A DNA stretch of 64,000 nucleotides, taken from Thermoplasmatales archaeon SW_10_69_26 (lineage in GTDB: Archaea > Thermoplasmatota > SW-10-69-26). Location of the stretch: the NCBI GenBank assembly GCA_003009755.1, contig PXUB01000001.1:85854-149853 (forward strand), written 5' to 3'. The notes under the pieces were generated by a model. The model was given only the letters and a program-made list of their open reading frames with translations. It was not told where the DNA came from and made no database searches. Every line of letters begins with the position of its first letter. The first letter of the stretch is position 1. This document shows positions 24,061 to 57,034 of the stretch, piece after piece. Position numbers and translations under genes: made by a program.

Positions 24061-24182
24061 CGATGTCGGCGCTCAGGCCGACGGCAATATCCCTAAGCCG
24101 GTCTGTATCCCTGGGGGTCACGCCGAGCTCGGGTTCACCTGGACGGCTGGGTGACGGGGAGGTCTATCGCCTCCGCTCGCCG

Positions 24183-24737: not shown

Positions 24738-24888
24738 GAGCAATGCTACCCGATGACGACGGAAAAGACGTGGGGAAGGATACGGCCTCTACCGACCAGA
24801 TTTGAATGTCCTCGAAGTTTCTCTACAATCGATTCTGGTATTCTGTACAAGGAAGGTCAAGGGTCCAGGCGCAATTTTTTCCCTCCTT

Positions 24889-26428: not shown

Positions 26429-26443
26429 AGGAGTGCGACAGCC

Positions 26444-27136
26444 ATGAAACGGAACATCCCGAGAACTGCCATCGTCGGGCTAGGTTCCATTTTGATGCTG
26501 ACCTTCGCGGCCATACCATCTCTCGCGTCGGACGCTAATCCGCCGGACGTGGAGATCGAAGACCGCGTGACCTGGTTCCCTAATGCCCATCACCTTGGCT
26601 TCCAAGCCCACGCCGAGGCGTGCGACGAGCGTTCGACTGTACGTCTATCTTTGACAATCAAGGAGGTTGGGTCGGCGTCCGAAACCGGGAACTCCCCCTG
26701 TTTGGAGGTTTCCGAGACGTTCACCCTCCCCAGCCCGGGAGATCACAAGGCCAAGGCAGAAGCCCAGGATGATCACGGGAACGAGGCCCGAAATGAAGGA
26801 AAAGTGACCTCGAGGATTGTCCCCTTCGATACGGGGTCTGTGCCCGGTTACCCCCCGCTCGAGGAAATCCGAGAAACGGAGCTCGGTCCGCGTGTCACCA
26901 TCGAGACGCTGAACGACGCCGGGGGCACAGTGAAGCGCTACGAGGTCTCTTCGCAGGGGGCCGTCCTGATGAGCACCATGGCCGATGCCGTTCCCGAGGA
27001 CGGAGACTTCACGACTCGCGCCGTCCTTGACCGTCCTGTTGGATGGGCCGACGTCCACGTGGACGGTGACGTTACGTGGTCCGGTTTGATTTACCAGTCG
27101 TCGGAGGAATGGTGGCATTTCCGCGCTCTCAAGTAA
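26444..27136 (+). CDS. Secreted hypothetical protein (Ig-like)
   Basis: Signal peptide; GGAG RBS; follows the Gly-rich gene. Confidence 0.7.
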   Translation: MKRNIPRTAIVGLGSILMLTFAAIPSLASDANPPDVEIEDRVTWFPNAHHLGFQAHAEACDERSTVRLSLTIKEVGSASETGNSPCLEVSETFTLPSPGDHKAKAEAQDDHGNEARNEGKVTSRIVPFDTGSVPGYPPLEEIRETELGPRVTIETLNDAGGTVKRYEVSSQGAVLMSTMADAVPEDGDFTTRAVLDRPVGWADVHVDGDVTWSGLIYQSSEEWWHFRALK

Positions 27137-27854
27137 TCGTCTCGTGGTGACCGAGGCAGGGTCGACGGCGAAGCGGAGCAGGCTGCATCCGGCTTGAGCC
27201 CGGCGGCCATCTGCATCGACAGCAATGGCCCCGGCGTTCGCCGCTGGCCACCTCGCCGACGTAGCGCTCGACCGAGATCCCTCTCGTGATACGTCTCCGG
27301 GTAGCCCGGGATCCAGCCGTCGGTGACGAGCGCCTCCAGCCCCAACCGTGACGAGATCCCGCCTCCCACGGGGCGATCATCGTCTTCGACGAACCGACGA
27401 GCTCGCTGTCGGGGACCGATCGGGGTGGGCGTGCAGGTGGTAGGCCCGCCAGGCCGTCCGCGAGGCGTCGGCGAACACCGTCTCGCTGAGCGCCACGATG
27501 CCCTCCACGTCCCTGCGGACGGCGGTCCCGCCCCGTGGATGGACCATCGCGCCGGGCAATCCTGCGCGAGCGGGAGCGCCTTCCGCCGTGTGGCATCCAC
27601 GCCAGACGTTAAGACCATCTCTCCACAACGTTAGAGCCTCCGCGGGCTGACCAGCGATTACCCCGACGTGACCACCGGCGGTAGAGCTAGGGTTTTTCCT
27701 CGCGGCCACGCACCCACCGATAGAGGATCCACGCGGAGACTCCCAACAGCAGGGCCACGACGAGAGCGATGATCAGTGAGGCGATCTCCACCTGGCGGAG
27801 CCCGAACATGGTCAGATGTTTTAGAACTGCTTGTTGTATGTATTATTCTAATGG

Positions 27855-28170
27855 GTGCGGGACCAGGCATTCGCCTGGCTGCAGGCCAGATCCGTCGGCG
27901 ACCTGCTAACAACTCCGGAGACTTTTCTGTTTGAGGATGTCAAAGGGAGATGGGCTTACCCGCACATCCTCGACGAGGGCCGGGACCTAGAGTGCCATTA
28001 CGTGATCACGGACGAGCCCACCGAAGGCGGCGTCACGTGGAACGACCAACCCAGCGGCGACGACCTGAACCTGCAGGACACGACGGCCACGAGAACGTGA
28101 ACACCACCAAGAAAAACTACGAGAACGAAGCCCGGTACCCCCAGAACCTGTATGGAGACCGCTGGCTGTT
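27855..28170 (+). pseudogene. Frameshifted gene remnant, function uncertain
   Basis: Protein-like segments in two frames (WAYPHILDEG...; NTTKKNYENEARY). Confidence 0.35.
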
Positions 28171-28285
28171 GCGAGCGCTCGAGGACTCGCTGGCGGTCTC
28201 GAGGCTCGGACGGACCCTCGCTGGCGCTTCGGCTCCGTCGAGCTTCTCGACGGCTGCGCCGCCGTGGGGGATCAGCCGTCGAGAA

Positions 28286-28728
28286 GTGGTCCCGTCGGGA
28301 CGCAGAGATCCGAGGCATCGATGCAGAACGAGGACCTCTGCCGACGACGGGAGCACGAGGCCTGCAGATACCGTGGAAAGAGGCCGAGTGGTCCCCTCGG
28401 GATTCTCGTACGAACCTCGCTTCGCTCGGTTCGGACGGCTCGCAAGCCCTTCCCGCTTGCTCGTAACCTGTGGTTCAAATCCCTCGGTCCCACTTCCTCT
28501 GGATGGTGGGCGAGAAGCCGCCCGTCGGGATCTCAAGACGTGGCGGAGACCGGGCACGTCTTGAGAGACGACGGGACCACGAGCGAACGTGGCCACAGGA
28601 GAAGGTGAGCGAGTGGTCCCGTCGGGATGCAGAGGGCCGAGACGACGATGCAGAACGAGGACCTCTGCAAACGACGGAGACCCGAGGCCTGGAGATACCG
28701 GAGAAAGAGGCCGAGTGGTCCCGTCGGG
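28286..28728. repeat. Array of tRNA-Glu 3'-end palindromic repeats (102-bp units)
   Basis: Core copies at 28286, 28388, 28521 (partial), 28613, 28715; inverted copy at 28569-28580. Confidence 0.9.
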
Positions 28729-29221
28729 GACTATCCTCCATACCGGGAGGGGCTGGAGCCAAAACCGCCCCCGGTTTTGACGGTTTCCGGCTTGGACCCT
28801 GATACGTGGACGGCGAACCCGTCCGCGTCTCCCTCTTTCTCCATTTCAGACCCCCCACCTTCTCCGACCCCGACGACGAGCCGAGCGTGCCGCAGCGCCC
28901 TCCGAGGGGCGACCGGCGATCAGGTCGGGCGGCCCATCATGGTCCCGCCCGAGCGACAGCGAGGGCGGGGCCTTGATGAGCGCCGGCCGATGCTCCGCCA
29001 GCCCCGAGGGGAAGCGAAGGCACGCGAGGCAGGAGGAGCGGGGAGCGGCCCCGACGGCGAGCCGAGACGCCGTAGCGACCCTCCGAGGCTCGCCCGCCAA
29101 CCGTCAACCTCACCCGCCAACTTCCCCCACAAGCAGACTCGGGAACGGGCCGTCGAAGGCGGGTGCGGAGAAACCTGGAAACCAGCCACGCACTCTTGTC
29201 TAGTAGACGGAAGCGCACGCA

Positions 29222-29246
29222 CGGGCCGCCCCTATGGGGCGGCCCG
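29222..29246. other. Perfect hairpin, candidate double-strand origin
   Basis: CGGGCCGCCCC-TAT-GGGGCGGCCCG immediately before the Rep core. Confidence 0.5.
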
Positions 29247-29250
29247 CTCG

Positions 29251-45518: not shown

Positions 45519-48500
45519 TCAGGCTTCGGGTTCGGCGAGCGAGAGGACGAGGTCGCCGATCGTGGTCCAGCGGGCCTGGAAGCCGCCCTCGGGGGAGTGG
45601 ATGCAGGCGCTGTCGCCGGCGAGGTGGGTGACCTCGTAGGCCTGGGCCGGTTCCTCGAGCCCGGTGCCCAGGGCCTTGGCGGCGGCCTCCTTGAGCGTCC
45701 AGGCCAGCGTCTCACCGAGGGTGGTCTCGATCTCGGCGTCGGCCAGCATCGCCCGCTCGTCGCTGGTCAGGCTGTCCTCGCGCCAGGCGTCCGAGCGGTC
45801 CTCGATGCGTTCGAGGTCGATCCCGATCGGGCTCCCCTGGCGGGCGGCGGCAATCGCCAGGCCGTGGCCGTGCGTGATGGACACGCTGCCCTCGGCACCG
45901 TCGACGACCGGGCGCCCGTCGTCGCGGTCGAGGCTCGCGTCGTCGCCGAAGGCCTCCTGCAGGGTACGCTCGGCGGCGTGCGTGCCGGCCTCGCGTTCGG
46001 CCTCGCGCTTGCCGCGCGGGTCGCGGGGGTCGAGCACGTCGACGGGCTGGCCGCTGAGCGCGACGCCGTCCGGGGCGAAGCTCACCAGCTCGCCGGTGAC
46101 CTGCTGGTTGGCGTCGGTGCGTTGCAGGCGGAGGCCGCGCACGTGGACGATGGGCTCCTCGCCGTCTCGGACGGTGGCGTCCCAGGTGGAGCCGGTGGCG
46201 TCGGCGGCGACGAGGCGCGCGTCGACGCGCACCTGGCCCTGCCTGGGCGCCGCCTCGAAGCTCAGGGTCTTGATGCCGACGGGCAGCTGGCGGCTCTCGC
46301 GGGTGAGGCCGGCGGCCTGCATGGCGGCCTCGATGGCGAGCGCGTGCGGGGAGGCGCCGCCCACGGTCAGGTCGGCTTGGGCCCTGACGTGGTCCTCGCC
46401 GGGCCGGGCCCGCGTGAGGACCTGGAAGCTGGGCCCGTGGAACAGGCGCTCGTAGATCGCCTCGGCCGCGATCGGGTCGGTCTCGGGGTCGGCGCGGTCG
46501 ACGGGCTTGACACCGGGCCCGGGGCCGGCTCGGGCGCGGGCGTGCACGGTGTCGTTCTGGGTCACCTGCCAGGCCTCTCCGGTTGCCTCGACCCTGAGCG
46601 TGGTCGGCTCCGTGATCCAGGCGGGCTGGGTGAAGCCGACCTCGTGGAGGGCCTCGACGGGGCTCGCGTCCGGTGCGGTCGCCTGGCGGAGGGCTTGCAG
46701 GTAGCGGACGCCGGGTACGAGCGGGCGGCCGGCGACCTGGTGGTCGTCGAGGAAGGCTTCCTCGCCGGTGAGGTGGAGCTCGTCGGTCCCGGTGTGCGGG
46801 GTCCGGGGCTGCTGGTCGGCGACGAGGAAGGTGCCGGGCTGGGCGAAGGCGTCGGTGAAGACCTCGGCGCCTCGCTCGGGGGCGAGGAAGGTGACCTCGC
46901 GGTCCTCGAGCACGGCGCGCACGGTGTCGTCGTCGGCCATGCCGCCGGCGGCGTCCCAGGCGGTCCAGTGGATGAGGGTCCCGTCGACCGGGGCCAGCAG
47001 ACCGGGCAGGCAGCCGTTGGCGAGCGCGTAGTCGGCTTGGCCGGGGTTGCCGTAGGCGCCGGCGATCGAGCCGAAGGCGACGTGGTGGGCCTCGGGCAGC
47101 TCGTCGGTGAGCTTGTGCACGGGCGTGAGCTTGGTGTCGAGCACGAGCTGCATCTCGTCGCGGGTCTTGTCGGCGAAGCCGCGCGAGCGGTCCACGCCGA
47201 CGCCGTGCACGACGAGATCGATCGCGCCCCAGTCGTCCTCGACGGTGGCGACGACCTCGGCCAGCGCGTCACCGTCGGTCGCGTCGGCGCGGTGGTAGCT
47301 GGTCTCGGCGACGGCGGCCAGGGCCTGGTAGGCGTGGGCGCGGCGGGCCTTGCGGACCTCGCGTTGGACCCGTTCTTCGATCTCGGCGGGTGTGGGGTCC
47401 TCGCCGGTCCTCTGGGCCTCGGCGAGCATCTGCTCGCGCAGGTCCTGGATCTCGTCCTCGTCGTCGGGGTCCAGCTCGGGATCCACGAGGGGGCTGCGGC
47501 CGACGAGGGCCAGGCGGACCTCGTGGCGGTCGGCCAGCTCGGCCAGGCAGGGTTGCACGGCGGCGCCGAGGCCGCCGGGGGCGAGCACGGTGATCGGTTC
47601 CGCGAGGTCGAGCTCGGCCTCGGGGTCGGTGGGGGCCGGGGCCGGGCGTTGGCGCAGCGAGCCGTCGAGACGGACGTCCGTGGTCGTGTCGGCGAGGATC
47701 TCGGCGACGAGGGTCTCGTCGGTGACGTCCTCGCCGACGATCACGGCGCGGGCGTCGATCTCCTCGGCGCGCAGCGTGCCGGCCAGCGCCGGGAGGCCCC
47801 GGGCGGAGGCGTCCTCGCCGGCTGCGACGAGCACGGTGCGGGCCTCCTCGGGGACGTCTTGGAGGTGGACGAGGAGATCGGTGAGCGCCTCGGGGTCGGC
47901 CTCGGCGGTCACCGAGACGACGTGCAGGGGCGCGTCGGGGCCGTCGCTGGCGTCCCCCAGGCGGGCCTGCGTGGCCTCGGGCAGCGGGCCCTCGATCGTG
48001 ACCTGGTCGGGCTGGAGGGATCCCTCAGGGGGCTGGGCGGGTCGCCAGCGCCAGGCGGTGCGCTGGATCGCGTCGGCCTCGTGGTGGGTGTCGGCGGAGC
48101 CGTTCTCGGAGGCGGTGTCGGCGTCGCTTGCGGGGGTGCCGGCGTGCTCGGCGAGCAGGCGGGCGGCGTCGTCGACGGTCGGCACGTCAGCCAGACTCAT
48201 GCCCTCGATCGGCGGGATGCCCAGCTCCTCGCGCGCCTCGGCGAGCACCTCGGCCTGCTTGACCGTGTCCACGCCCAGATCGGCCTCGAGATCCATGCCC
48301 GGATCGATCACGTCCTCGGGGTAACCGGTCTTGCGTGAGACGAGGTCGACGAGCAGTGCCTCGACCTCGCTCACGTCGGGGCCGTCGGTCTCGGTCGGCT
48401 GGGTCCCGCTGGAGCCGTTGGTGCTGGCGGGCTCGGCCGCGGCTTCGTCGGCGTCGATGTCGGCCTCGCTGCTTCCGTTGGTCGTGGCACCGTCGGCGCC

Positions 48501-51500
48501 GTCGACGTGCTCGGCGAACAGCTGGGCCGCGTCGTCGACGGTCGGCACGTCGGCCAGGCTCATGCCCTCGATCGGCGGGATGCCCAGCTCCTCGCGCGCC
48601 TCGGCGAGCACCTCGGCCTGCTTGACCGTGTCCACGCCCAGATCAGCCTCGAGATCCATGCCCGGATCGATCACGTCCTCGGGGTAACCGGTCTTGCGTG
48701 AGACGAGGTCGACGAGCAACGCGCGGACCTGGGCGGGATCGACGCCGTCGGTGTTGGCGGTCGAGCCGTCCTGAGCGGTGGCCGATCCGCCCTCGGCGGT
48801 GGGCTCGGGGCTGCGGTCGGGCAGGGGCTGGCTGGTGGAGCCCTTGCCAGGCTGGCGGGCGGCGGCCGGGCGCGCCTCGGCTTCGCGGGTCTGGGTCTGG
48901 GTCGTCTGCGTCTCCCGATCGGGGTCGACGGCGCGCAGCAGGCGGTCCTGGCGGGTGACGGTGGCGTCCCCGACCGCACGGGATAGCCAGTCCTCGAAGG
49001 TGGCCTGGTCGATCTGGCCGGGCGCCTCGGCGATGCGTTCGAAGCAGGCCATGGCGACCTGGCTGCCGAAGCCGGCGGCGAAGCGCAGCGAGCGCGAGCG
49101 GTCGGTCGGGCCGCCCTCGCTGAAGGTGAACGTCTCGAAGGCGGGGTCGGGTTGCTCGAGGTTGGCGACGGGCGGGGCCTGGCGGCGGCGCAGCAGGTCG
49201 ACGGCGATGCCGTCCTCGAGCCCGGCGCCCATGGCGTGGCCTGTGAGGCCCTTCGTGTTGGTGACGAGCACGTCCTCGGCGTCGTCGCCGAGCGCGGCTT
49301 GCAGGGCGTCGATCTCGGCTTCGGCGGACCCGCCGCGGGGCGGGGTGGCGGGTTCGTGGCTGACGAAGACGAGGTCCTCGGCCAGCTCGCTGCGCGACAG
49401 GTCGGCGTCCTGGCGGACCTGGTCGAGGAAGGCCTCGACCTCGGCGCTGACGTGGTCGGGATCCAGGCGGGCGCCGTGGAAGGCGCTGTTGGCGACGCTG
49501 GTCTCGGCGATCTCGGCCAGCGGGGTGAGGCCGCGCTCGGTGGCGGCCTCGTGGGTCTCGACGACGAGCCCGACGGCGCCGGAGCCGACGAGCATGCCGT
49601 TGCGACGCCGGTCGAAGGGCAAGGCGGCCTCGTCGACGGTGTCGGCGGTGCTGGCGGCGCCGGCGGCCATGAAGCCGCTGCCGATCCAGGGCAAAAGCTT
49701 CTCGTTGCCGGCGACGTCGGCGCCGAGCACGATCACGCGCTCGCAGCGACCCTGCTCGATCCAGTCCTGGGCGAGGGCGAGCGCGCTCGTGGTGCTGGCG
49801 CAGGCGGCGTTGACGTGCAGGTTGGGGCCTCGGGCGTCGACGAGCTGGGCGACCTGGGCGTGTCCCATGCCGAGCACGCGGAACAGGAAATCGCGCGGGA
49901 ACTCGTCGGTGCTGGCGTGGGCGGGCTCGGGCTCGGCTCGATCGGTGTCGAGGTGGGTCTGGGCGGCCCAGTCCATCAGCTCGGCGCGGCCCTCGGCGTC
50001 CAGGTGGTCGCCCAGACGGTCGATGGCGTCGACGAGCGTGTCGGGGTCGGCGCCGGCGGGTGTCGGGCTGGGGGCCTGGGTGTCGACGATGTCGAGCAGG
50101 TTGTCGTAGCCGGGGAAGGCGCTGGCGAGGACGACGCCGGTCTCGGCCTGCAGGGGTTCCGGCAGCGACCAGCCCTCCTGCAGCGTCGTGCCGGTGCTGG
50201 TCTCGTGCTCGTCGGGGACCAGCGGGATCGAGGCGTCACTGAGGGCCTCGAGCGCGGCGGCGACGGCCAGGCGGGCGGTCCGGTCGGCGTCCTCGAGCCA
50301 GTCCTCGTCGACGCCGTAGGCCGACAGGTCGACGTCGGCGATGCGGCCGGCGAGCGAGACGACGTCCTCGGGGTCGTCGACGGCCTCGAAGCTGGGGCCG
50401 CCGTCGCCGTTCTTGTCGAGGCGTTGGACGCCCATGTCGGCCATCGTGCGCCGCTCGCCGTCGGGGACCTCGCTGAGGAGGTTCTCGCCCTCGAGCAGCG
50501 CCTGGCGGGCGGCCGGGTCGAAGGGATCCTCGACGCCGGGCACGCCGAGGCTGACGCCGGAGACGACGGTGCGCGGCGTCTGGACCTGCCGGGGCTCGGC
50601 GGGGCGAGCTTGCGCCGGGGTCGGCCGGGGGTCTGGCGTGAGCTGCGTGCTCGGCTGCGGCTCGTCGGCCTCGGCGGTGGGAGGGTCGGCGAGGCCGGCG
50701 GCGGTGAGGGCCAGCCGGGCTCGCGAGAACGAGGCGAGCTCGCCGGTGCGCTCGTGCATGGTGGGCACGGCGGGGATGTGGTCGGCGTTGGCTTGCGCCA
50801 GGCCGGAGAGCACGCGACCGGGGCCCGTCTCGACGATCATGTCGAGGTTCGCGTCGTCGAAGGCCTCCATCGTCTCGACCCACTCGACGGCGCTGGCGAC
50901 CTGCTCGGCGAGCAGGTCCCGGATCGCGTCGGGGTCCTCCGGGTAGGGGTCGCCGGTGGCGTTGGCGATCACGGTCGTCTCGGGCGGGTCGACCGGGATC
51001 CGCTCGAGCACCTCGCGCAGGGGGGCCTGCGCGGGTTCGACGATCGGGCTGTGGAAGGCCGCGGAGACCTGCAGTTGGCTGTTGCGGACGTCAGACTCGT
51101 CGGCGCGCTCGGCCAGGGTCTCGAGCGCGGGCGTGGTGCCGGCGACGACGGTCTGCTCGGGACCGTTGACGTTGGCGGGCCAGGCGTCGAGGTCCTGGAT
51201 GAGATCGAGCGCGCCAGCGCGGTCGGTCTCGAGCGCGACGAGGCCGCCGGGATCGTCGACCTCGACGTCGGCCATCTCCCGGCCGCGCGCGCTGACGGCG
51301 TGCAGGGCGTCCTCGAAGCTGAGCGTGCCAGCCGCCACGAGCGCGGCGTACTCGCCCAGGGAGTGCCCGGCGACGATGTCGGGGTCGACGCCCAGCTCCT
51401 CGAGGACGCGCAGCATGGCGACGTCGGCGGCGAGCACGGCGGGTTGGCAGACCTCGGTCGGGGTCAGCGCCTGGATGCCGTCCTCGCCTTCCTTGGCGAG

Positions 51501-54500
51501 CAGCTCGGTCAGGGGTCGGCCCAGCAGCGGCGTGAGGACCTGGTCGGCTTCCTCGAGCACCTCGCGGGCGGCGGGGAAGTGCTCGGCCAGCTGCAGAGCC
51601 ATCTGCGGGTACTGGCTGCCTTGGCCGGGGAACACGAGGCCGAGCTTGCCCTCGGTGTCGGTCAGGTCGCCGACGGCGACGCCTTGCACCAGCGCCAGCT
51701 GGGGCGGCAGCTCGCCGGTGATGGCTTGCTCGATCGTGTCCTGGTCGACGTCGGGCGTGTGCGCGACGCGGACGGGGTCCTCGGGATCGAAGCGGCGGGC
51801 CTGGGGCGGCTTGGCGATCTCCTCACGCAGCGCCTGGCGGTCGGGGGCGCTGGCGAGGCGGGGCTCGGTCGGGTCCTCGGGGTCCTCGCCGCGGGCTTGG
51901 GGCGGGGCGGAGAGGACGACGTGGCTGTTCGTCCCGCCGAAGCCGAAGGCGGAGACACCAGCCAGGCGCTCGTCGTCGCTCCAATCGGTCGGCTCGGTCA
52001 CCAGGGACAGCGGGGTGTCGTCCCAGGCGACCTCGCTGGTGGGGTCGTCGACGACGGTCGGGGGCAGCGTGGCCTCGTCGATGGCCTTGGCGGCCTTGAT
52101 CAGGCCGGCGGCGCCGGCGGCGGCCTTGAGGTGGCCGATGTTGGCCTTGATCGAGCCGAGCCCGATCTCGCCGGGGTCCTCGTCCAGCACGGCCTCGAGC
52201 GTCTGGACCTCGGTCGGGTCGCCGACCGGGGTGCCGGTGCCGTGGGCTTCGACGAGCGTGAGGTCCTCGGGGTCGACGTCGGCGTCGTCGAAGGCGTTCT
52301 CGAGCGCGCGGCGTTGCCCGCTGGGGTTGGGCGCGGTGATGCCCTTGCCTTTGCCGTCGCTGCTGGAGCCGACGCCGCGGATGCAGGCGTAGACGTGGTC
52401 GCCGTCCTCGATGGCGTCCTCGAGACGTTTGAGGACGAGGCAGCCGGCGCCTTCACCCATCACGAAGCCGCTGGCGCGCTCGTCGAAGGGGAACGAGCCC
52501 TCGGGCGAGAGCGCGCCGATGGCGGAGAACTTGGCGAACGTGCCGGGATCCATCGAACGGTCGACGCCGCCGGTGAGGGCCACGTCGACGCGGTCCTCGT
52601 GCAGGAGGGTGACGGCGTCCTCGAGCGCGGCCAGCGAGCTGGCACACGCCGCATCCACGGTGCGGGCGGGGCCGCCGATGTCGTAGACGCTGCAGACGCG
52701 CGAGGCGACGATGTTGGCCAGCTCGCCGGGCATCGTGTCCTCGTTGATCTCGGGGAGGTCGTCCTGGGCCTGTTCGAGCGTGGCGAGCACGTCCTCGTCG
52801 GCGTCGTCGTCGGCGATGGCTTGCTTGGCCTCCTCCAGCGCCAGGCGGCGGCTGGTCCACATGCGTTGCTCGCCGCCCATCGCGTTGCCGAGGATGACGG
52901 CCCAGTCGTTGCGGTTCTCGTCCTCGAGCAGGCCGGCGTCGGCGAGGGCGTCGCCGGCGGCGTGCACGGCCCACTTCTGGCTGTCGTCCATCTGGTCGGC
53001 GACGTTGGGCGGGATGCGGTGCTCGATCGGGTCGAAGTCGACGTCGTCCTCGTCGACGAACCCGCCGAGCACGGTGTAGGTCTCGCCGCTGACGTCGCGG
53101 GTGTCGGCGAGGTGGGTCTGGGGATCGATCGGCCAGCGGTCCTCGGGGATCTCGTCCACGGCAACACGGCCCTCGAGCACGTTGTCCCACAGCTGGTCGG
53201 GGTCGCCGGCGTCGGGCATGATGCAGCCGAGGCCGACGATCGCGATCGCGTCCTCGGGCACCTCGTCGTAGCCGCCGATCGCGGGGGGTTGGGCCAGGCG
53301 TTCGTCGAGGGCCTGGGCCGCCTGGGCGGCGTCGTCGGTGACGCGGCGGTGCAGGTCCTCGATCGTGTAGGTGTCCTCGATGAGCTCGGCGCCTTGCCCC
53401 ATGAGGTAGTTGCCCTCCTGGAGCTGTTCGTCGCTGGACACCTCGTCGTAGGTTCCGTCGTCTTGTCGGGTGACGCCTTGGGCGGCCAGGCGCGTGGCGC
53501 CGAGGTTCTCGTCCTCGACGCGTTCCTTGCGTTCGTCGAGGTCGACGCCTTCGTTGACGAGCTCTTGCTCGAGCTCTTGGACGCGGTCGGTGAACGGGGT
53601 TGGGGCCGAGCGGGCGCGGATGCCGACGGTCTCGCCGGTGACCTCGGTCTCCCTGGAGGCGAGGACGAGGCGCTGGTACTCGGGCGTGGTGGCGCCGGTC
53701 GCGACGATCTCCTCGGTCGCGAGGTAGGCGGTGCCCATGAGCACGCCCACGCGGGCTTCGTCGACGCCGGCGGCCAGCGTGCCGGCCATCGCGGCGGTCT
53801 CGTCGTCGCTGATGCCGCCGGCCAGCAGGACCTTGACGTCCTCGCCGACGCTGGCAACCTCTTGCAGGGCGACGTCCCAGAGCACGAGGCTCGGCAGCTT
53901 GCCGATGTGGCCGCCGCACTCGTTGCCTTCCACGACGACGTGGTCGAGCCCGGCTTCGATCGCCGAGCGCACGAGCCCGCGGGAGGGCGTGTGCAGGTAG
54001 GTGTCGACGCCGGCGTCCTCGAGCTCGCGGGCTTGTTCGACGGTGCCGGCCGCGATGAGGGCCTTGTCGGGCTGCTCCTCGCGGATCAGGCGTTGGTGGG
54101 CGTCGCGCTTGTCCTCGTTGAGGTCGAGCCCGATGATGCCGCAGCCGAAGGCCTGGTCCTCGTCGAGGGTGTCCAGCGTGCCGTCCATGAGGTCCTCGGC
54201 CCACTCGGGGCGGAGGGAGGCGAAGGCGAGGAACGGCAGCCCGCCGGCGTCGGCGACGGCCTTGGCGAAGGCGGGTTCCTCGCTGACGTTGGCCATGGCG
54301 CCTTGGACGACCGGGAGGTCGGTGCCGTGGGCCTGGGCCAGGGGCGATCCCTCGGTGAGGGGGAACTTGTCGGCTTGCTCACGCACGCGGGTCTCGAGGT
54401 GGTCGAGCGCGGCCTCGAGCGTGCCCATCTCGGCGAAGAAGCCGGCGTGGGCGGCGTCGGCGCCGAGCGCGTGGATCGCGTCGTGGGGGTCCTCGGTCCA

Positions 54501-55262
54501 GTGCCCGCGCTCCTCGTCGAGCAGGGCGCGGAGGTGGGCGCGGCGCGTGGCGGGGCCGAGTTCGCTGGAGTTGCCTTGCTCGTCCTCCCAGGCGTCGTGG
54601 ACGTGTTCGTCGGCGGGGCGGGCCAGCGCGTAGAAGGGCTCGTCGAGCGTGGAGCCGAGCGCGCGGACGTCGCCGCCGTCGAAGGCGCCCAGAGCGCGGG
54701 TCCAGGCGTCCGACAAGCCGGCCTCGGGGAGCCCGTACAGCTGGGCGTCGAGGACGACCATGTCGGCGTGGACGAGCAGGGCGCCGGTCGCGCTGGGGCC
54801 GGCGCCGCCCCAGGCGATCGTCGGCAGGTCGAACTCGTCGAGCGCCGGCAACAGCACCAGGCTGGAGGTGTCGCTGGCGCGGCCGGGGCCTTCGCCGCCG
54901 CGGGCGACGAGCGCGTCGGCGCCGGCGTCGCGGGCGCGGCGGGCCTCTTGCACGTCGCGGACCTCGACGGCGGCGGGGACGCCGGCGGCCTGCCAGGCGT
55001 CGACGGCTTGCCGCAGCTGGGGGAGGCTTCCCGCGTCGATCTGCCAGGTGGCGATCACGGCGATACCGGCCTCGGGGATCGGATCGTCCTCGGGGCGGAC
55101 GCGCACGAGCGTCCGGCTGGGGTCGATCTCGGCCAGGCGGTCGTCGGCATACGGGCGGGTGCGGTCGACGAGCGCCCAGGCGCCGGCGACTTGCGCGGCT
55201 TCGGCGAGCTGGGAATCCGGGACCTGGGGGTCGGCGACGACGAGTCGCTCTCGTGCGTGCAT
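45519..55262 (-). CDS. Type I PKS/FAS-like megasynthase: degenerate ER, ER (PfaD/FabK-like), KS, AT, KS, ACP, ACP, KR, DH, PPTase
   Basis: EGNECGGH; DAACASS, HGTGT, NIGHL; FPGQGSQ, GHSLG, AFHS; NAACAS, TGHAMG; LGVDTVK x2; GQADYALAN; FLDDHQV..PG; GIDLE, WTLKEA. Confidence 0.95.
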   Translation of the reverse strand: MHARERLVVADPQVPDSQLAEAAQVAGAWALVDRTRPYADDRLAEIDPSRTLVRVRPEDDPIPEAGIAVIATWQIDAGSLPQLRQAVDAWQAAGVPAAVEVRDVQEARRARDAGADALVARGGEGPGRASDTSSLVLLPALDEFDLPTIAWGGAGPSATGALLVHADMVVLDAQLYGLPEAGLSDAWTRALGAFDGGDVRALGSTLDEPFYALARPADEHVHDAWEDEQGNSSELGPATRRAHLRALLDEERGHWTEDPHDAIHALGADAAHAGFFAEMGTLEAALDHLETRVREQADKFPLTEGSPLAQAHGTDLPVVQGAMANVSEEPAFAKAVADAGGLPFLAFASLRPEWAEDLMDGTLDTLDEDQAFGCGIIGLDLNEDKRDAHQRLIREEQPDKALIAAGTVEQARELEDAGVDTYLHTPSRGLVRSAIEAGLDHVVVEGNECGGHIGKLPSLVLWDVALQEVASVGEDVKVLLAGGISDDETAAMAGTLAAGVDEARVGVLMGTAYLATEEIVATGATTPEYQRLVLASRETEVTGETVGIRARSAPTPFTDRVQELEQELVNEGVDLDERKERVEDENLGATRLAAQGVTRQDDGTYDEVSSDEQLQEGNYLMGQGAELIEDTYTIEDLHRRVTDDAAQAAQALDERLAQPPAIGGYDEVPEDAIAIVGLGCIMPDAGDPDQLWDNVLEGRVAVDEIPEDRWPIDPQTHLADTRDVSGETYTVLGGFVDEDDVDFDPIEHRIPPNVADQMDDSQKWAVHAAGDALADAGLLEDENRNDWAVILGNAMGGEQRMWTSRRLALEEAKQAIADDDADEDVLATLEQAQDDLPEINEDTMPGELANIVASRVCSVYDIGGPARTVDAACASSLAALEDAVTLLHEDRVDVALTGGVDRSMDPGTFAKFSAIGALSPEGSFPFDERASGFVMGEGAGCLVLKRLEDAIEDGDHVYACIRGVGSSSDGKGKGITAPNPSGQRRALENAFDDADVDPEDLTLVEAHGTGTPVGDPTEVQTLEAVLDEDPGEIGLGSIKANIGHLKAAAGAAGLIKAAKAIDEATLPPTVVDDPTSEVAWDDTPLSLVTEPTDWSDDERLAGVSAFGFGGTNSHVVLSAPPQARGEDPEDPTEPRLASAPDRQALREEIAKPPQARRFDPEDPVRVAHTPDVDQDTIEQAITGELPPQLALVQGVAVGDLTDTEGKLGLVFPGQGSQYPQMALQLAEHFPAAREVLEEADQVLTPLLGRPLTELLAKEGEDGIQALTPTEVCQPAVLAADVAMLRVLEELGVDPDIVAGHSLGEYAALVAAGTLSFEDALHAVSARGREMADVEVDDPGGLVALETDRAGALDLIQDLDAWPANVNGPEQTVVAGTTPALETLAERADESDVRNSQLQVSAAFHSPIVEPAQAPLREVLERIPVDPPETTVIANATGDPYPEDPDAIRDLLAEQVASAVEWVETMEAFDDANLDMIVETGPGRVLSGLAQANADHIPAVPTMHERTGELASFSRARLALTAAGLADPPTAEADEPQPSTQLTPDPRPTPAQARPAEPRQVQTPRTVVSGVSLGVPGVEDPFDPAARQALLEGENLLSEVPDGERRTMADMGVQRLDKNGDGGPSFEAVDDPEDVVSLAGRIADVDLSAYGVDEDWLEDADRTARLAVAAALEALSDASIPLVPDEHETSTGTTLQEGWSLPEPLQAETGVVLASAFPGYDNLLDIVDTQAPSPTPAGADPDTLVDAIDRLGDHLDAEGRAELMDWAAQTHLDTDRAEPEPAHASTDEFPRDFLFRVLGMGHAQVAQLVDARGPNLHVNAACASTTSALALAQDWIEQGRCERVIVLGADVAGNEKLLPWIGSGFMAAGAASTADTVDEAALPFDRRRNGMLVGSGAVGLVVETHEAATERGLTPLAEIAETSVANSAFHGARLDPDHVSAEVEAFLDQVRQDADLSRSELAEDLVFVSHEPATPPRGGSAEAEIDALQAALGDDAEDVLVTNTKGLTGHAMGAGLEDGIAVDLLRRRQAPPVANLEQPDPAFETFTFSEGGPTDRSRSLRFAAGFGSQVAMACFERIAEAPGQIDQATFEDWLSRAVGDATVTRQDRLLRAVDPDRETQTTQTQTREAEARPAAARQPGKGSTSQPLPDRSPEPTAEGGSATAQDGSTANTDGVDPAQVRALLVDLVSRKTGYPEDVIDPGMDLEADLGVDTVKQAEVLAEAREELGIPPIEGMSLADVPTVDDAAQLFAEHVDGADGATTNGSSEADIDADEAAAEPASTNGSSGTQPTETDGPDVSEVEALLVDLVSRKTGYPEDVIDPGMDLEADLGVDTVKQAEVLAEAREELGIPPIEGMSLADVPTVDDAARLLAEHAGTPASDADTASENGSADTHHEADAIQRTAWRWRPAQPPEGSLQPDQVTIEGPLPEATQARLGDASDGPDAPLHVVSVTAEADPEALTDLLVHLQDVPEEARTVLVAAGEDASARGLPALAGTLRAEEIDARAVIVGEDVTDETLVAEILADTTTDVRLDGSLRQRPAPAPTDPEAELDLAEPITVLAPGGLGAAVQPCLAELADRHEVRLALVGRSPLVDPELDPDDEDEIQDLREQMLAEAQRTGEDPTPAEIEERVQREVRKARRAHAYQALAAVAETSYHRADATDGDALAEVVATVEDDWGAIDLVVHGVGVDRSRGFADKTRDEMQLVLDTKLTPVHKLTDELPEAHHVAFGSIAGAYGNPGQADYALANGCLPGLLAPVDGTLIHWTAWDAAGGMADDDTVRAVLEDREVTFLAPERGAEVFTDAFAQPGTFLVADQQPRTPHTGTDELHLTGEEAFLDDHQVAGRPLVPGVRYLQALRQATAPDASPVEALHEVGFTQPAWITEPTTLRVEATGEAWQVTQNDTVHARARAGPGPGVKPVDRADPETDPIAAEAIYERLFHGPSFQVLTRARPGEDHVRAQADLTVGGASPHALAIEAAMQAAGLTRESRQLPVGIKTLSFEAAPRQGQVRVDARLVAADATGSTWDATVRDGEEPIVHVRGLRLQRTDANQQVTGELVSFAPDGVALSGQPVDVLDPRDPRGKREAEREAGTHAAERTLQEAFGDDASLDRDDGRPVVDGAEGSVSITHGHGLAIAAARQGSPIGIDLERIEDRSDAWREDSLTSDERAMLADAEIETTLGETLAWTLKEAAAKALGTGLEEPAQAYEVTHLAGDSACIHSPEGGFQARWTTIGDLVLSLAEPEA

Positions 55263-55275
55263 CGGGTGTGCCTCC

Positions 55276-56883
55276 TCAAAGGGGGGTGTTTCCGTGGGGC
55301 TTGGATGGGGACTCGTGGCCGGCGTCGGAGAGCCGGTCGAGCCACGTGATCATGCGGTTGCGGGTGTGACGGGGTTCGACGACCTCGTCGACGTAGCCTT
55401 CGCGCGCGGCCTGGTAGGGGTCGGCGAAGGCGTCCTCGAACTCCTGGCGGAGCTGGGCGCGCAGGGCTTCGGGGTCGTCTGCTTCGGCCAGCTGTTCGCG
55501 GTGGAGGACGCGGACGGCGCCGTCGGGGCCCATGACGGCGATCTCGGCGGTGGGCCAGGCGAGGTTGACGTCGCAGCCGAGGTGCTGGCTGTTCATCGCG
55601 ATGTAGGCGCCGCCGTAGGCTTTGCGGAGCACGCAGGTGAGCGTGGGGACCTCGGCTTCGGCGTAGGCGTGCACGAGCTTGGCGCCGTGGCGGATGACGC
55701 CGTTGTGCTCTTGGTCGGTGCCGGGCAGGAAGCCGGGTACGTCGACGAGGCTGACGACGGGGAGACCGAAGGCGTCGCAGGTGCGCACGAAGCGGGCGGC
55801 CTTGGTCGAGGCGTCGAGGTCGAGCACGCCGGCGAGGTGGGCGGGGTCGTTGGCGACGACGCCGACGGGGGTGCCGCCCAGGCGGGCGAAGCTCGTGCGG
55901 ATGTTCGGGGCGAAGTCCTGCATGACCTCGAGCGTGCGGCCGCCGTCGACGATGCGTCGGGTGACCTCGTCGATGTCGTAGGGCTTCTCGCGCTGGTCGG
56001 GGATGATGCCGTCGAGCACGGGCTCGGTCGTGGGCTCGGCTTCGGGGCCGTCTCGTGTCGGGAGCTCGTGCTGGGTGCTGCGGGGCAGGTAGTCGAGCAG
56101 GCGGCGGGCTTGGGCGATGGCCTCCTGCTCGTCGTCGGCGACGAAGTGCGCGACGCCGGACTCGGAGCCGTGGACGCTGGCGCCGCCCAGCTCCTCGCTG
56201 GTGACGTCTTCGCCGGTGACGGTCTCGACGACGTCGGGGCCGGTGAGGAACATCCGGCCCGAGCCGCGGACGAGGATGACGAAGTCGGTGAGGGCGGGGC
56301 TGTAGACGGCCCCGCCGGCGCAGGGGCCGGCGACGACGGTGATCTGCGGGACGAGCCCGCTGGCCTCGACGTTGCGTTGGAAGATGTCGCCGTAGCCGGC
56401 GAGGCTGGCGACGCCCTCCTGGATGCGGGCTCCGCCGCTGTCGTTGAAGCCGATGACGGGGCACCGTTGGCGGATCGCCTGGTCGAGCGTCTTGGCGATC
56501 TTGGAGGCGTGCGAGCGGCCGAGGCTGCCGCCTTGCACGGTGAAGTCCTGGGCGTACACGGCGACGGGCTTGCCGTCGACCTCGGCGCTGCCGGTCACGA
56601 CACCGTCGCCGGGGGCGGCCTTCGTGTCCCCGATCTCGGGGTCGCGGGGCTCGCGCAGCGCGTCGGTCTCGATCCAGCTGTCGGGGTCGACGAGCAGCTT
56701 CACGCGCTCGCGCGCAGTGAGCTTCCCGCGGTCGTGTTGACGCTCTTTGCGGGCCCGGCCTCCGCCTTCGTGGGCGCGCTGGCGGCGCCGCTCGAGCTCG
56801 CGGAAACCGTCGAGGTGGCCGCCTTGACCATCCGGGTCGCCTTCGCTACGGCGGTCTGGGACCGGTCGAGCGTCTTGCCTCAT
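55276..56883 (-). CDS. Acyl-CoA carboxylase carboxyltransferase subunit (PccB-like)
   Basis: GKLTARER, DSGGARIQEG and VDVPGFLPG motifs. Confidence 0.95.
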   Translation of the reverse strand: MRQDARPVPDRRSEGDPDGQGGHLDGFRELERRRQRAHEGGGRARKERQHDRGKLTARERVKLLVDPDSWIETDALREPRDPEIGDTKAAPGDGVVTGSAEVDGKPVAVYAQDFTVQGGSLGRSHASKIAKTLDQAIRQRCPVIGFNDSGGARIQEGVASLAGYGDIFQRNVEASGLVPQITVVAGPCAGGAVYSPALTDFVILVRGSGRMFLTGPDVVETVTGEDVTSEELGGASVHGSESGVAHFVADDEQEAIAQARRLLDYLPRSTQHELPTRDGPEAEPTTEPVLDGIIPDQREKPYDIDEVTRRIVDGGRTLEVMQDFAPNIRTSFARLGGTPVGVVANDPAHLAGVLDLDASTKAARFVRTCDAFGLPVVSLVDVPGFLPGTDQEHNGVIRHGAKLVHAYAEAEVPTLTCVLRKAYGGAYIAMNSQHLGCDVNLAWPTAEIAVMGPDGAVRVLHREQLAEADDPEALRAQLRQEFEDAFADPYQAAREGYVDEVVEPRHTRNRMITWLDRLSDAGHESPSKPHGNTPL

Positions 56884-57034
56884 AGGTACCCACTCCGCCC
56901 CGGATGACGTGGCCGACTTCAACCTTTGCGACCGCGTTCACCACAGACGCCGATGTCCGCCTCGGTGGTCGTCTCGCTCGTTGACGAACCCGTGGCCGGT
57001 GGGTTGAAGGCGGCGACGGGCGCCTGCCCCCGGC

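What the first reader, a model, noticed from the sequence alone, without database searches (positions are those of the whole stretch)
48150..48730. Both ACP domains have Thr at the phosphopantetheine site
Seen: LEADLGVD-T-VKQAE in both copies (ACG at 48264-48266 and 48627-48629), where canonical ACPs have an invariant Ser. I saw no Ser-type ACP elsewhere in the protein, yet a PPTase is fused in cis. The two ACPs are almost identical in DNA (363-bp offset), suggesting recent duplication or conversion. Inference: threonine phosphopantetheinylation by a dedicated PPTase.
Basis: partly seen in the sequence, partly recalled or inferred. Interest (0 to 1): 0.8.

Follow-up and report, generated by a model that had tools for sequence, protein, structure and literature searches.

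The report
Threonine-type acyl carrier domains in archaeon
A giant lipid-building enzyme in an archaeon has threonine where carrier domains normally have the serine that anchors their swinging arm, and the same swap is conserved in many related enzymes, so it may mark an undescribed protein modification.

Summary
Window 45519-55262 (minus strand) encodes a 3247-aa megasynthase: ER-KS-AT-KS-like-ACP-ACP-KR-DH-PPTase. Both ACPs read EADLGVD-T-VKQAE (Thr2212 and Thr2333, codon ACG), and the protein has no Ser-type site.

This is not a local mutation.
- Among 269 relatives, 1258 aligned ACP domains have T 926, S 329, A 2 and 1 gap.
- Proteins are almost always all-T or all-S.
- On a KS tree of 69 proteins the T/S label needs only 3 changes.
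- All four Thr codons are used.

The host genome is archaeal. Its only PPTase match is the fused one, and its only PP-binding matches are these two Thr-ACPs.
- In 41 related archaeal genomes, all 15 with Thr-ACPs also have a PPTase, usually in the same frame or contig.
- No Ser-type carrier was seen in the loci checked from those 15.
- In 53 of 54 Thr-type loci from other phyla with at least 5 kb downstream, a PPTase of the same kind is linked.

The model puts the Thr at the first residue of helix II, which is the canonical attachment position.

Best reading (about 0.7): Thr is the phosphopantetheine site, loaded by a co-inherited Sfp-type PPTase. No biochemical evidence exists. My 10 literature searches found no description of this. 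E. coli ACP S36T is reported as unmodifiable.

The parts
45519..55262 (-). Whole megasynthase gene, 3247 aa (P0001): ER-KS-AT-KS-like-ACP-ACP-KR-DH-PPTase
   Evidence: ORF list, translation, Pfam, NCBIfam
53322..54326 (-). Enoyl reductase (NMO / FabK / PfaD-like), residues about 313-647
   Evidence: PF03060 at 2.7e-18; TIGR03151 FabK over residues 313-647 at 2.5e-28, below its cut-off
51813..53252 (-). Ketosynthase, residues 671-1150 (DAACASS, EAHGTGT and GHL motifs are readable in the translation)
   Evidence: PF00109, PF02801 and PF16197; sequence
50820..51635 (-). Acyltransferase (GHSLGE), residues 1210-1481
   Evidence: PF00698 at 7.3e-44; TIGR00128 FabD-like at 4.7e-62, below its cut-off
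48963..50585 (-). Second KS-like (CLF-position) domain, approximate limits. It keeps a Cys (NAACAST), unlike classical CLFs
   Evidence: Second PF00109 stretch and a PF08545 hit at residues 1817-1850; sequence; limits are inferred
48471..48749 (-). ACP1, residues 2172-2264
   Evidence: PP-binding; alignment A1
48627..48629 (-). Codon ACG = Thr2212 at the canonical phosphopantetheine position of ACP1
48108..48386 (-). ACP2, residues 2293-2385
   Evidence: PP-binding over residues 2303-2370; AF2 model with pLDDT 87
48264..48266 (-). Codon ACG = Thr2333 at the canonical phosphopantetheine position of ACP2. It is the first residue of helix II in the model
46992..47585 (-). Ketoreductase, residues 2560-2757
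   Evidence: PF08659 at 3.1e-16
46107..46775 (-). PKS-type dehydratase, residues 2830-3052 (LDDHxxxGxxxxPG is readable)
   Evidence: PF21089 and PF14765; sequence
45519..46175 (-). Sfp-type 4'-phosphopantetheinyl transferase domain fused in cis, residues 3030-3247 plus the stop codon
   Evidence: PF01648; alignment to Sfp and PcpS/EntD; AF2 pLDDT 90.3; Foldseek best matches 7bcz and 4mrt
55276..56922 (-). Acyl-CoA carboxylase carboxyltransferase subunit, same strand, ending 13 bp upstream of the synthase start. Likely malonyl-CoA supply
   Evidence: PF01039 at 4.7e-176
57035..58846 (+). Biotin carboxylase fused to a biotin carrier, transcribed divergently
   Evidence: PF02786, PF00289, PF02785 and PF00364

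Best explanation
The gene encodes a self-contained, iterative PUFA-synthase-like fatty-acid/polyketide megasynthase. It belongs to the uncharacterised 'Type R'-like group of secondary lipid synthases.

Proposed mechanism:
- The tandem carrier domains use a threonine at the first residue of helix II, in the motif EADLG[VI]D-T-VKQAE, instead of the universal serine, as the attachment point for 4'-phosphopantetheine.
- The Sfp-type PPTase, fused at the C-terminus here and encoded just downstream in most relatives, takes CoA and transfers phosphopantetheine to that Thr hydroxyl, giving O-phosphopantetheinyl-threonine.
- The holo-ACPs then shuttle malonyl and acyl thioesters between AT, KS, KR, DH and ER.
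- The adjacent acyl-CoA carboxylase genes supply malonyl-CoA.

What is shown: the sequence facts, the conservation, the genomic linkage and the fold.

What is inferred: that the Thr is the modified residue, that the linked PPTase performs the modification, and what the product is (a reduced fatty acyl chain with an unknown release route).
For: 1. The Thr sits exactly at the canonical site.
- A profile of 25 Thr-ACPs aligns its DT onto the DS of every solved ACP shown, including PigH 5y08 and the Aquifex, Thermotoga and Streptomyces ACPs.
- In the AF2 model (pLDDT 87) helix II begins at residue 41, which is the Thr.
- The fold matches solved ACPs, TM 0.62-0.75 normalised to the query.

2. A hydroxyl at this position is under strong selection.
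- 1258 aligned ACP domains from 269 relatives give T 926, S 329, A 2 and 1 gap.
- Within a protein the state is uniform. Among the 149 best 50%-identity cluster representatives, 81 are all-T, 66 all-S, 1 is S+T and 1 is A+T.
- In 25 archaeal Thr-ACPs, T41 is invariant and no Ser column is conserved.
- All four Thr codons occur in 80 loci from many phyla: ACG 109, ACC 104, ACA 12, ACT 8.

3. The state is old and clade-wide.
- On a KS tree of 69 proteins (36 T, 33 S) the label needs 3 changes. Shuffled labels need 23.3 on average, and 0 of 500 shuffles were as low.
- The window protein sits in a starred set of 33 T and 1 S.

4. In this genome there is no other possible substrate or enzyme.
- G000 is 95% complete and archaeal by its rRNA.
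- It has 1 PF01648 match, the fused PPTase, and 2 PF00550 matches, these two ACPs.

5. Related archaea show the same pairing.
- All 15 of the 41 genomes with the Thr-ACP also have a PPTase match, mostly in the same open frame or contig.
- Every carrier locus I checked from those 15 genomes reads DT.

6. The linkage holds across phyla.
- 53 of 54 Thr-type loci with at least 5 kb downstream of the last ACP hold a PPTase hit by an HMM of the archaeal ones.
- In 13 of 57 loci with a PPTase hit, it lies in the same ORF as the ACPs.
- Five bacterial Thr-type genomes each have at least 2 PPTase matches, and 4 of the 5 include an AcpS-sized one. The cluster PPTase is therefore an extra copy.

7. The PPTase looks competent.
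- SITH, GIDLE and WTLKEAAAK align with the NISH, GIDIE and WSMKESFIK motifs of Sfp.
- K56, H102, G118, D120, E140, K162, E163 and K167 are invariant in 17 sequences.
- The fold is a full Sfp type.

8. The complex model supports binding. With CoA and Mg the score is 0.90 against 0.28 for the best of 3 controls. That mark was reached by 58 of 80 solved complexes and 2 of 110 mismatched pairs. The runs agree in at least 93% of contacts, and partner pLDDT is at least 85. ACP residues 40-42 touch PPTase residues 122, 127, 159 and 163. Sfp-PCP complexes are solved, so this pass may come from memory.
Against: - There is no biochemical or mass-spectrometric evidence. Everything here is comparative.
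- E. coli ACP S36T is reported as a variant that 'cannot be post-translationally modified by 4'-PP' (PMC3340395, passages seen). It is also used as a site mutant in PMC13343975. So at least AcpS-type enzymes do not accept Thr.
- I found no obvious adaptation of the PPTase active-site motifs to a bulkier nucleophile.
- Ser-type Pfa clusters also often carry their own PPTase (PMC3098273, section 8). Linkage alone therefore does not prove specificity for Thr.
- The 80 loci were retrieved with a pattern that contains DT, so their all-T state is by construction. Only their codon usage and PPTase linkage are informative.
- The literature searches covered open-access papers and bioRxiv only.
Confidence: 0.7

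Rival explanations
1. The Thr-ACPs are never phosphopantetheinylated. They would be structural pseudo-carriers, and the synthase would use free CoA thioesters or a carrier supplied in trans.
For: E. coli ACP S36T is reported as unmodifiable (PMC3340395). Archaea are proposed to make fatty acids without ACP (PMC3533463, passages).
Against: - No other PP-binding match exists in this 95%-complete genome.
- A catalytically intact PPTase is retained in cis here, and linked in 53 of 54 loci elsewhere.
- The domain is repeated 2-8 times, with invariant helix-II residues and a hydroxyl kept in 1255 of 1258 domains. A vestigial site would not be expected to behave this way.
Confidence: 0.13
2. Phosphopantetheine is attached, but to a different residue of the domain: the nearly invariant Thr20 of KTGYP, Thr70 of PT[LIV], or a linker Ser.
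For: T20 and T70 are at least 90% conserved in 25 archaeal Thr-ACPs.
Against: - KTGYP is also readable in one solved Ser-type relative, the first ACP domain of PigH, as printed. There the DS serine aligns with the DT. I did not tabulate KTGYP in the Ser-type PfaA ACPs.
- No Ser column is conserved.
- Only residue 41 lies at the N-terminus of helix II.
- In the complex model, residues 40-42 face PPTase E163, which aligns with the Glu of the Sfp KES motif.
Confidence: 0.05
3. The Thr carries another group: a different prosthetic arm, or the acyl chain directly as an oxoester. The PPTase would then serve another purpose.
For: None directly. This is only that the chemistry at the Thr is untested.
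Against: - The PPTase has no other carrier-domain match in this genome to act on.
- KS, AT, KR, DH and ER domains of this kind act on thioesters carried on a long arm. This is established knowledge of type I FAS/PKS, recalled and not tested here.
Confidence: 0.05
4. Artefact or decaying gene: a sequencing error, a pseudogene, or chance substitutions copied by gene conversion.
For: The two copies are nearly identical, so one mutation could have been copied to the other.
Against: - The frame is open for 3247 aa with the active-site motifs intact.
- The same DT motif occurs in relatives from many phyla.
- 81 of the 149 best 50%-identity cluster representatives are all-T.
Confidence: 0.01

Closest known systems
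Type R secondary lipid synthase clusters of Shulse & Allen 2011 (PMC3098273): a pfaA homologue KS-MAT-CLF-ACP(3-6)-KR followed by a PPTase gene, in Koribacter, Solibacter, Elusimicrobium minutum and Roseiflexus; product unknown
   Same: - The core domain order is the same, with tandem ACPs and an associated PPTase whose P1b' motif is of the hShxH kind. The window reads VSITH.
- One Type R cluster is described with an intervening ACC gene, and ACC genes flank the synthase here.
- A Thr-type locus from a record titled Elusimicrobium minutum has 4 ACPs and a 224-aa PPTase frame about 3 kb downstream.
   Different: - Here ER is fused at the N-terminus, DH and PPTase are fused at the C-terminus, there are only 2 ACPs, and the host is an archaeon.
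- The paper's main text holds no occurrence of 'threonine' (listing). The Thr site is not described there.
- I did not see its supplementary figures because supplements are closed.
- The equation of the Thr-type with Type R rests on architecture and an organism name. I did not compare against the published accessions.
Classical PfaA tandem ACPs of PUFA synthases (NCBIfam TIGR02813)
   Same: - The ACPs are tandem and nearly identical.
- The motif frame E-A-D-L-G-[IV]-D-x-[IV]-K is shared.
- The best NCBIfam match of a single ACP is to PfaA positions 1514-1593.
   Different: - Classical PfaA ACPs read DSIK[RK]VEIL, and this group reads DTVKQAE.F.
- The whole protein scores 682 bits against a cut-off of 1010.1.
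- The KS tree separates the two groups, with 3 label changes in 69 rows.
Sfp-type (group II) PPTases: Sfp 4mrt/1qr0, PcpS 7bcz, PptT, human AASDHPPT
   Same: The fold matches over about 210-240 columns, with Foldseek E about 1e-10 and TM about 0.62-0.71 normalised to the query. Aligned motifs are conserved.
   Different: The domain is fused to its substrate synthase, and its only available substrates carry Thr instead of Ser.
E. coli ACP S36T, a laboratory mutant
   Same: It has the same Ser-to-Thr exchange at the attachment position.
   Different: It is reported as unmodifiable and non-functional with the E. coli machinery (PMC3340395, passages). Here the Thr state is natural, conserved and paired with its own PPTase.

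Membership tests
Acyl/peptidyl carrier protein domain (Pfam PP-binding, PF00550) | Profile match above the curated cut-off | tested here: met
   48.9 bits against a cut-off of 20.8, in 2 stretches; 32.1 and 31.6 bits in the six-frame genome search
Acyl/peptidyl carrier protein domain (Pfam PP-binding, PF00550) | Helical-bundle ACP fold | tested here: met
   AF2 pLDDT 87 and pTM 0.77, with helices at 5-20, 41-55 and 71-82. Foldseek top hits are all ACPs; among the first ten, rmsd is 1.6-2.5 A over 71-84 columns
Acyl/peptidyl carrier protein domain (Pfam PP-binding, PF00550) | Invariant serine at the N-terminus of helix II as the phosphopantetheine attachment site | tested here: not met
   Thr in both copies. 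It aligns to the DS serine of the solved ACPs shown
Acyl/peptidyl carrier protein domain (Pfam PP-binding, PF00550) | Actually carries 4'-phosphopantetheine | not testable with these tools
   Needs mass spectrometry of the expressed domain
Sfp-type (group II) 4'-phosphopantetheinyl transferase | PF01648 match above the cut-off | tested here: met
   42 bits against a cut-off of 25; 49 bits in the genome search
Sfp-type (group II) 4'-phosphopantetheinyl transferase | Metal, CoA and catalytic motifs (H of xSxxH, GxDxE, WxxKE..K) | tested here: met
   Alignment to Sfp and PcpS/EntD. H102, G118, D120, K162, E163 and K167 are invariant and E122 is nearly invariant in 17 sequences. The assignment of roles to the Sfp residues is recalled, not taken from a call
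Sfp-type (group II) 4'-phosphopantetheinyl transferase | Two-lobed fold of about 220-240 residues, as opposed to the ~120-residue AcpS type | tested here: met
   pLDDT 90.3. The best Foldseek matches 7bcz, 4mrt and 2cg5 cover 209-240 columns, whereas AcpS-type entries cover only about 110-124 columns
Sfp-type (group II) 4'-phosphopantetheinyl transferase | Transfers Ppant to a carrier hydroxyl (here Thr) | not testable with these tools
   Only a complex model is available: score 0.90 against a best control of 0.28
PfaA proper (NCBIfam TIGR02813) | Whole-protein score above the curated cut-off | tested here: not met
   682 bits against 1010.1
Type R secondary lipid synthase (Shulse & Allen 2011) | KS-MAT-CLF-ACPn-KR on one protein with an associated PPTase | tested here: met
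   Domain order, definition from the passage. Extra ER, DH and PPTase fusions and only 2 ACPs are differences
Type R secondary lipid synthase (Shulse & Allen 2011) | Phylogenetic grouping with the published Type R KS sequences | not tested
   The published accessions were not available to me. Only an Elusimicrobium minutum MAG locus (L078) links the two

The most novel reading that the evidence does not exclude
O-(4'-phosphopantetheinyl)-threonine is the native prosthetic linkage of a large, ancient and phylogenetically wide clade of PUFA-synthase-like lipid synthases. The clade spans Elusimicrobia, Chloroflexi, Acidobacteria, Thermodesulfobacteriota, Actinomycetota, Thermoplasmatota and even a Heimdallarchaeota MAG.

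The linkage would be installed by a co-inherited Sfp-type PPTase. The Thr/PPTase pair would act as an insulated carrier system that housekeeping AcpS-type enzymes cannot load.

In Thermoplasmatota this module, together with ACC, would be the cell's only carrier-protein system. That would amount to a complete ACP-dependent one-polypeptide fatty acid synthase in archaea.
Probability: 0.6. Interest if true: 0.9.

Novelty: new variant of a known kind. Interest (0 to 1): 0.8.

Why it matters
The Ser attachment site is treated as a defining, invariant feature of carrier proteins. The Ser-to-Thr mutant is used in E. coli work as an unmodifiable control (PMC3340395).

If a conserved natural Thr-type clade is really loaded, it would have several consequences:
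- It would add a new post-translational linkage.
- Motif-based annotation that requires Ser at this site (my assumption, not checked here) could miss these carriers or call them inactive.
- It would offer an orthogonal ACP/PPTase pair for engineering.
- It would give a concrete handle on a large group of lipid synthases whose products are unknown.

There is also a separate point about archaea. These genomes are otherwise reported to lack ACP and ACP synthase (PMC3533463). Profile matches to this Thr-type ACP occur in 71 of 201 genomes sampled from the phylum, which bears on the debate about archaeal fatty-acid synthesis.

Tried and rejected
  - Searches returned 0 papers.
  - (motif strings) returned only unrelated hits.
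  - Searches returned PUFA-synthase papers. In these, 'threonine' was either absent or belonged to unrelated NRPS or genome papers.
  - One search returned 2 unrelated papers.
  - One search found the S36T papers, and the archaeal ACP-independent papers.
  - Subscription-only papers and supplements were not searchable. Figure S3 and the tables of PMC3098273 could bear on the PPTase and ACP motifs, and I could not see them.

- **A specificity determinant in the PPTase.**
  - The motifs of the Thr-linked enzymes look ordinary.
  - One correlate appeared. The single Ser-type member inside the Thr clade (P0156) has Ala where all 40 other PPTase sequences in that alignment, all Thr-linked, have the Gly of GxDxE.
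  - That is n = 1, and Sfp itself has Gly there, so I do not build on it.

- **Regex count.** It gave A = 27 and G = 3. Most of the A's printed examples are KS-domain strings (G[LIV]DA[LM]RDAG), and both printed G examples lie outside the ACP motif; not all hits were printed. The profile-aligned count replaces it.

- **Complex prediction.** It passed, but Sfp-PCP and PptAb-ACP complexes are solved, so the pass may reflect likeness only.

- **Genetic-code or editing explanations.** I considered these and dropped them. The motif is shared by bacteria and archaea of many phyla, and all four Thr codons are used.

- **Not checked.** I did not verify residue by residue that the profile matches carry Thr. 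I did not build a PPTase tree against Ser-type PfaE enzymes, because I held no such sequences.

Full report
**Observation**

The finding lies inside one long gene on the minus strand, window 45519..55262, encoding 3247 aa.
- Translating 48150-48731(-) gives two copies of a carrier-domain sequence that contains LEADLGVDTVKQAE.
- The threonines are residues 2212 and 2333. Their codons are at 48627-48629 and 48264-48266, and both are ACG on the coding strand.
- A GxDS-type site is found nowhere in the protein.
- The two copies are 363 bp apart. They are 89% identical over 264 nt and identical at 189 of 196 positions in the core.

**What the gene is**

Pfam gives the following domains:

| Domain | Residues |
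|---|---|
| Nitronate-monooxygenase-type enoyl reductase | 313-647 |
| KS | 671-1150 |
| AT | 1210-1481 |
| Second KS-like region | about 1817-1850 |
| PP-binding (two domains) | about 2172-2264 and 2293-2385 |
| KR | 2560-2757 |
| PKS dehydratase | 2830-3052 |
| ACPS-family PPTase | 3145-3239 |

- The best NCBIfam model is PfaA, at 682 bits, below its cut-off of 1010.1.
- KS (DAACASS, HGTGT, GHL), AT (GHSLG), DH (HxxxGxxxxP) and PPTase motifs can all be read in the translation.
- Directly upstream on the same strand lies an acyl-CoA carboxylase carboxyltransferase (55276-56922). A biotin carboxylase-BCCP gene (57035-58846) is transcribed divergently.
- One polypeptide plus ACC therefore holds every activity of a reducing fatty-acid cycle, together with its own carrier-activating enzyme. 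No thioesterase was seen.

**Thr is the rule in a large clade, not a local accident**

- A word-indexed search with the ACP region found 3032 proteins at E <= 0.001 among 8000 candidates scored.
- A full scan of 1.84 billion representatives with one ACP domain found 5392 hits at E <= 0.001, 2388 at <= 1e-10 and 472 at <= 1e-30.
- I aligned every ACP domain of the 269 proteins returned to the query and read the residue opposite Thr2333. The result was 1258 domains: T 926, S 329, A 2 and 1 gap.
- In the 120 full-length relatives the counts are 590 T, 1 S, 1 A and 1 gap.
- In the 149 best 50%-identity representatives the split is 81 all-T proteins, 66 all-S, 1 S+T and 1 A+T.
- The two classes have distinct logos: EADLG[VI]DTVKQAE.F against the classical PfaA EADLGIDSIK[RK]VEIL.
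- Only 69 of the proteins had a KS match of at least 380 aligned residues; the rest are fragments and were left out. On a FastTree of those 69 KS domains (36 T, 33 S) the label needs 3 changes. Shuffled labels need 23.3 on average, and 0 of 500 shuffles were as low.
- The window protein lies in a starred group of 33 T and 1 S.
- The exceptions are informative. P0156 sits inside the Thr clade and has DSVKVAE in all five ACPs. P0035 has one DSVKQVE beside five DT copies. The position therefore tolerates Ser or Thr and almost nothing else, which is what an essential hydroxyl would look like.
- In 80 loci from species genomes all four Thr codons are used: ACG 109, ACC 104, ACA 12, ACT 8. These loci were retrieved with a DT-containing pattern, so their Thr state itself is not independent evidence.
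The record titles name Thermoplasmatales and Thermoplasmatota, Methanobacteriota and Heimdallarchaeota archaea. They also name Thermodesulfobacteriota, Syntrophaceae, Desulfomonilaceae, Chloroflexia, Caldilineaceae and Elusimicrobia. Further titles name Myxococcales, Acidobacteriaceae, Bryobacteraceae, Solirubrobacterales, Amycolatopsis, Gemmatimonadetes and others.

**Position in the fold**

- A profile of 25 archaeal Thr-ACPs matches 47 distinct solved ACP sequences. In all four printed alignments the DT column falls on the DS serine.
- In those 25 sequences the invariant residues are G21, P23, E34, L37, G38, D40, T41, V42, K43, Q44, E46 and R52. No serine column is conserved.
- The AlphaFold model has pLDDT 87 and pTM 0.77. 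Its helices are at 5-20, 41-55 and 71-82, so the Thr is the first residue of helix II.
- Foldseek returns only ACPs at the top.
- The defining feature 'invariant Ser' is therefore tested and not met, while the fold and the profile are met.

**The PPTase**

- The last 218 residues align with Sfp and with P. aeruginosa PcpS/EntD across SITH, GIDLE and WTLKEAAAK.
- In 17 sequences from related archaea, K56, H102, G118, D120, E140, K162, E163 and K167 are invariant.
- The model (pLDDT 90.3) is a full two-lobed Sfp-type fold. The best matches are 7bcz, 4mrt and 2cg5 over 209-240 columns, while AcpS-type entries match only half of it.
- A complex model with CoA and Mg scored 0.90, against 0.28 for the best of 3 controls. 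That mark was reached by 58 of 80 solved complexes and 2 of 110 mismatched pairs. The runs agree in at least 93% of contacts, and partner pLDDT is at least 85.
- In that model, ACP residues 40-42 touch PPTase residues 122, 127, 159 and 163. Similar complexes are solved, so this shows likeness, not proof.

**The genomic argument**

I consider this the strongest evidence.
- The window's genome is 2.82 Mb in 49 contigs and 95% complete. It is archaeal: SSU_rRNA_archaea scores 1497.8 bits, followed by a tRNA and an archaeal LSU.
- A six-frame search of the whole genome finds exactly one PF01648 match, the fused PPTase, and exactly two PF00550 matches, the two Thr-ACPs.
- Among 41 relatives, the Thr-ACP query matches 15, PF01648 matches 20 and PF00550 matches 18.
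- All 15 Thr-ACP genomes are among the 20 with a PPTase, mostly with both in the same open frame or contig.
- The five genomes with a PPTase but no Thr-ACP are as follows:
  - Two are 72%-complete genomes.
  - One has NRPS-like PCPs (G018, 10 PP-binding matches).
  - Two have weak matches of 25.8-29 bits.
- In the 28 carrier loci returned, plus one fetched afterwards, every carrier from the 15 Thr-ACP genomes reads DT. Ser-type motifs occur only in G018 and in a stand-alone frame of G026. The G039 match did not fit the Thr profile and showed no motif.
- In loci from other phyla, 53 of 54 with at least 5 kb downstream of the last ACP contain a PPTase hit by an HMM of the archaeal ones (L121 is the miss). 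In 13 of 57 loci with a PPTase hit, it is in the same ORF as the ACPs.
- Among the 269 proteins, 25 carry a fused PPTase: 24 are T-type and 1 is the S-type P0156.
- Five bacterial Thr-type genomes each have 2-4 PF01648 matches, and 4 of the 5 include an AcpS-sized frame. The cluster enzyme is therefore additional to the housekeeping one.

**Mechanism proposed**

- The linked Sfp-type PPTase transfers 4'-phosphopantetheine from CoA to the hydroxyl of Thr at the start of helix II.
- The holo-ACPs then serve the KS, AT, KR, DH and ER domains in an iterative cycle fed by the neighbouring ACC.
- Shown: the sequences, the conservation, the linkage and the folds.
- Inferred: the modification itself, the specificity of the PPTase and the product.
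- My confidence is about 0.7. The main rival is that the domains are unmodified. It is hard to reconcile with a retained intact PPTase that has no other carrier match to act on in this genome.

**Against**

- Nothing here is chemistry.
- E. coli ACP S36T is described as a protein that cannot be modified by 4'-PP and is non-functional (PMC3340395, passages). The same variant is used as the site mutant in PMC13343975 (passages).
- I found no clear adaptation in the PPTase motifs.
- Ser-type Pfa clusters also tend to have their own PPTase (PMC3098273, section 8 read in full).

**Comparison with what is known**

- The closest described system is the 'Type R' secondary lipid synthase of Shulse & Allen 2011. 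It is KS-MAT-CLF-ACP(3-6)-KR followed by a PPTase gene, in Koribacter, Solibacter, Elusimicrobium minutum and Roseiflexus. Its product is unknown, and one cluster has an ACC gene in between (passages).
- Its PPTases carry the hShxH motif, as does VSITH here.
- That paper's main text does not contain the word threonine.
- None of my ten searches found a description of a threonine phosphopantetheine site. This covers open-access PMC and bioRxiv only.
- Archaea are reported to lack ACP and ACP synthase apart from a few transfers from bacteria (PMC3533463, passages). Even so, profile matches to this ACP occur in 71 of 201 genomes sampled across the phylum, and in 46 of the 140 of high quality. In some families the counts are 22 of 22 and 23 of 24. 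The residue was not checked in those matches.

**The repeat**

- Within the window's family the two ACPs of one genome are more alike in DNA than orthologous copies between genomes. Within-genome identity is 0.95 here, 0.98 in G001 and 0.87 in G002, against 0.68-0.79 between genomes.
- In a neighbouring family the orthologous copies are the closer ones: 0.77 and 0.82, against 0.72 and 0.76.

**Verdict**

- It is a new variant of a known kind of system: a Thr-type carrier/PPTase pair in a known but uncharacterised synthase group.
- I found no description of it in what I could search.
- Interest: 0.8.

Noticed in passing
window 24000-37930: A lower-GC island (0.52-0.66, against about 0.69-0.72 on the flanks). 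Its frames mostly have no Pfam match. It holds one DNA-methylase-like frame (32909-34306 +) and one weak phage-integrase-like frame (36138-37100 +, E 7e-4). These abut tRNA-Glu (37082-37156 -) and tRNA-Ser (37845-37929 +). It looks like an integrated mobile element or provirus.
   Followed up: partly
window 55276-58846: Acyl-CoA carboxylase genes flank the synthase: a carboxyltransferase on the same strand 13 bp upstream, and a divergent biotin carboxylase-BCCP fusion. Together with the synthase they would form a complete malonyl-CoA-to-acyl-chain module in an archaeon.
   Followed up: partly
genomes G000-G205 (archaeal phylum of the window): Profile matches to the Thr-type tandem ACP occur in 71 of 201 sampled genomes of the phylum, and in some families in 22 of 22 and 23 of 24. 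They usually lie in open frames of about 2900-3800 aa. An ACP-dependent megasynthase therefore seems common in this archaeal phylum. The residue at the site was not checked in these matches.
   Followed up: partly
protein P0156 (3234 aa), PPTase at residues 3037-3229: This is the only Ser-type member (DSVKVAE in all five ACPs) inside the Thr clade of the KS tree. Its fused PPTase has Ala where all 40 other PPTase sequences in that alignment, all Thr-linked, have the Gly of GxDxE. It could be a compensating 'methyl swap', but n = 1 and Sfp has Gly with Ser substrates.
   Followed up: partly
window about 49750-49810 (residues about 1820-1835): The second KS-like domain, in the position of a chain-length factor, keeps a cysteine in NAACAST and may therefore be catalytically active (sequence).
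   Followed up: no
G018 (several contigs; L036, L053): One related archaeal MAG (87% complete, 4% contamination) has 10 PP-binding matches with classical PCP motifs (LGAHSLL, LGGHSLL) in long frames, and two PPTase matches. This is NRPS-like content that is unusual for an archaeon, or it is contamination.
   Followed up: no
L111 (record titled Candidatus Heimdallarchaeota archaeon) and L067 (Methanobacteriota archaeon): Thr-type tandem-ACP synthases with a fused or linked PPTase also occur in MAGs labelled as other archaeal phyla. In L111 one of four ACPs has Asp (GAT) at the site.
   Followed up: no
window 48108-48749, against L006-L009: The two ACP copies evolve in concert in the window's family (within-genome DNA identity 0.87-0.98). 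They do not in the neighbouring family, where orthologous copies are the closer ones.
   Followed up: yes
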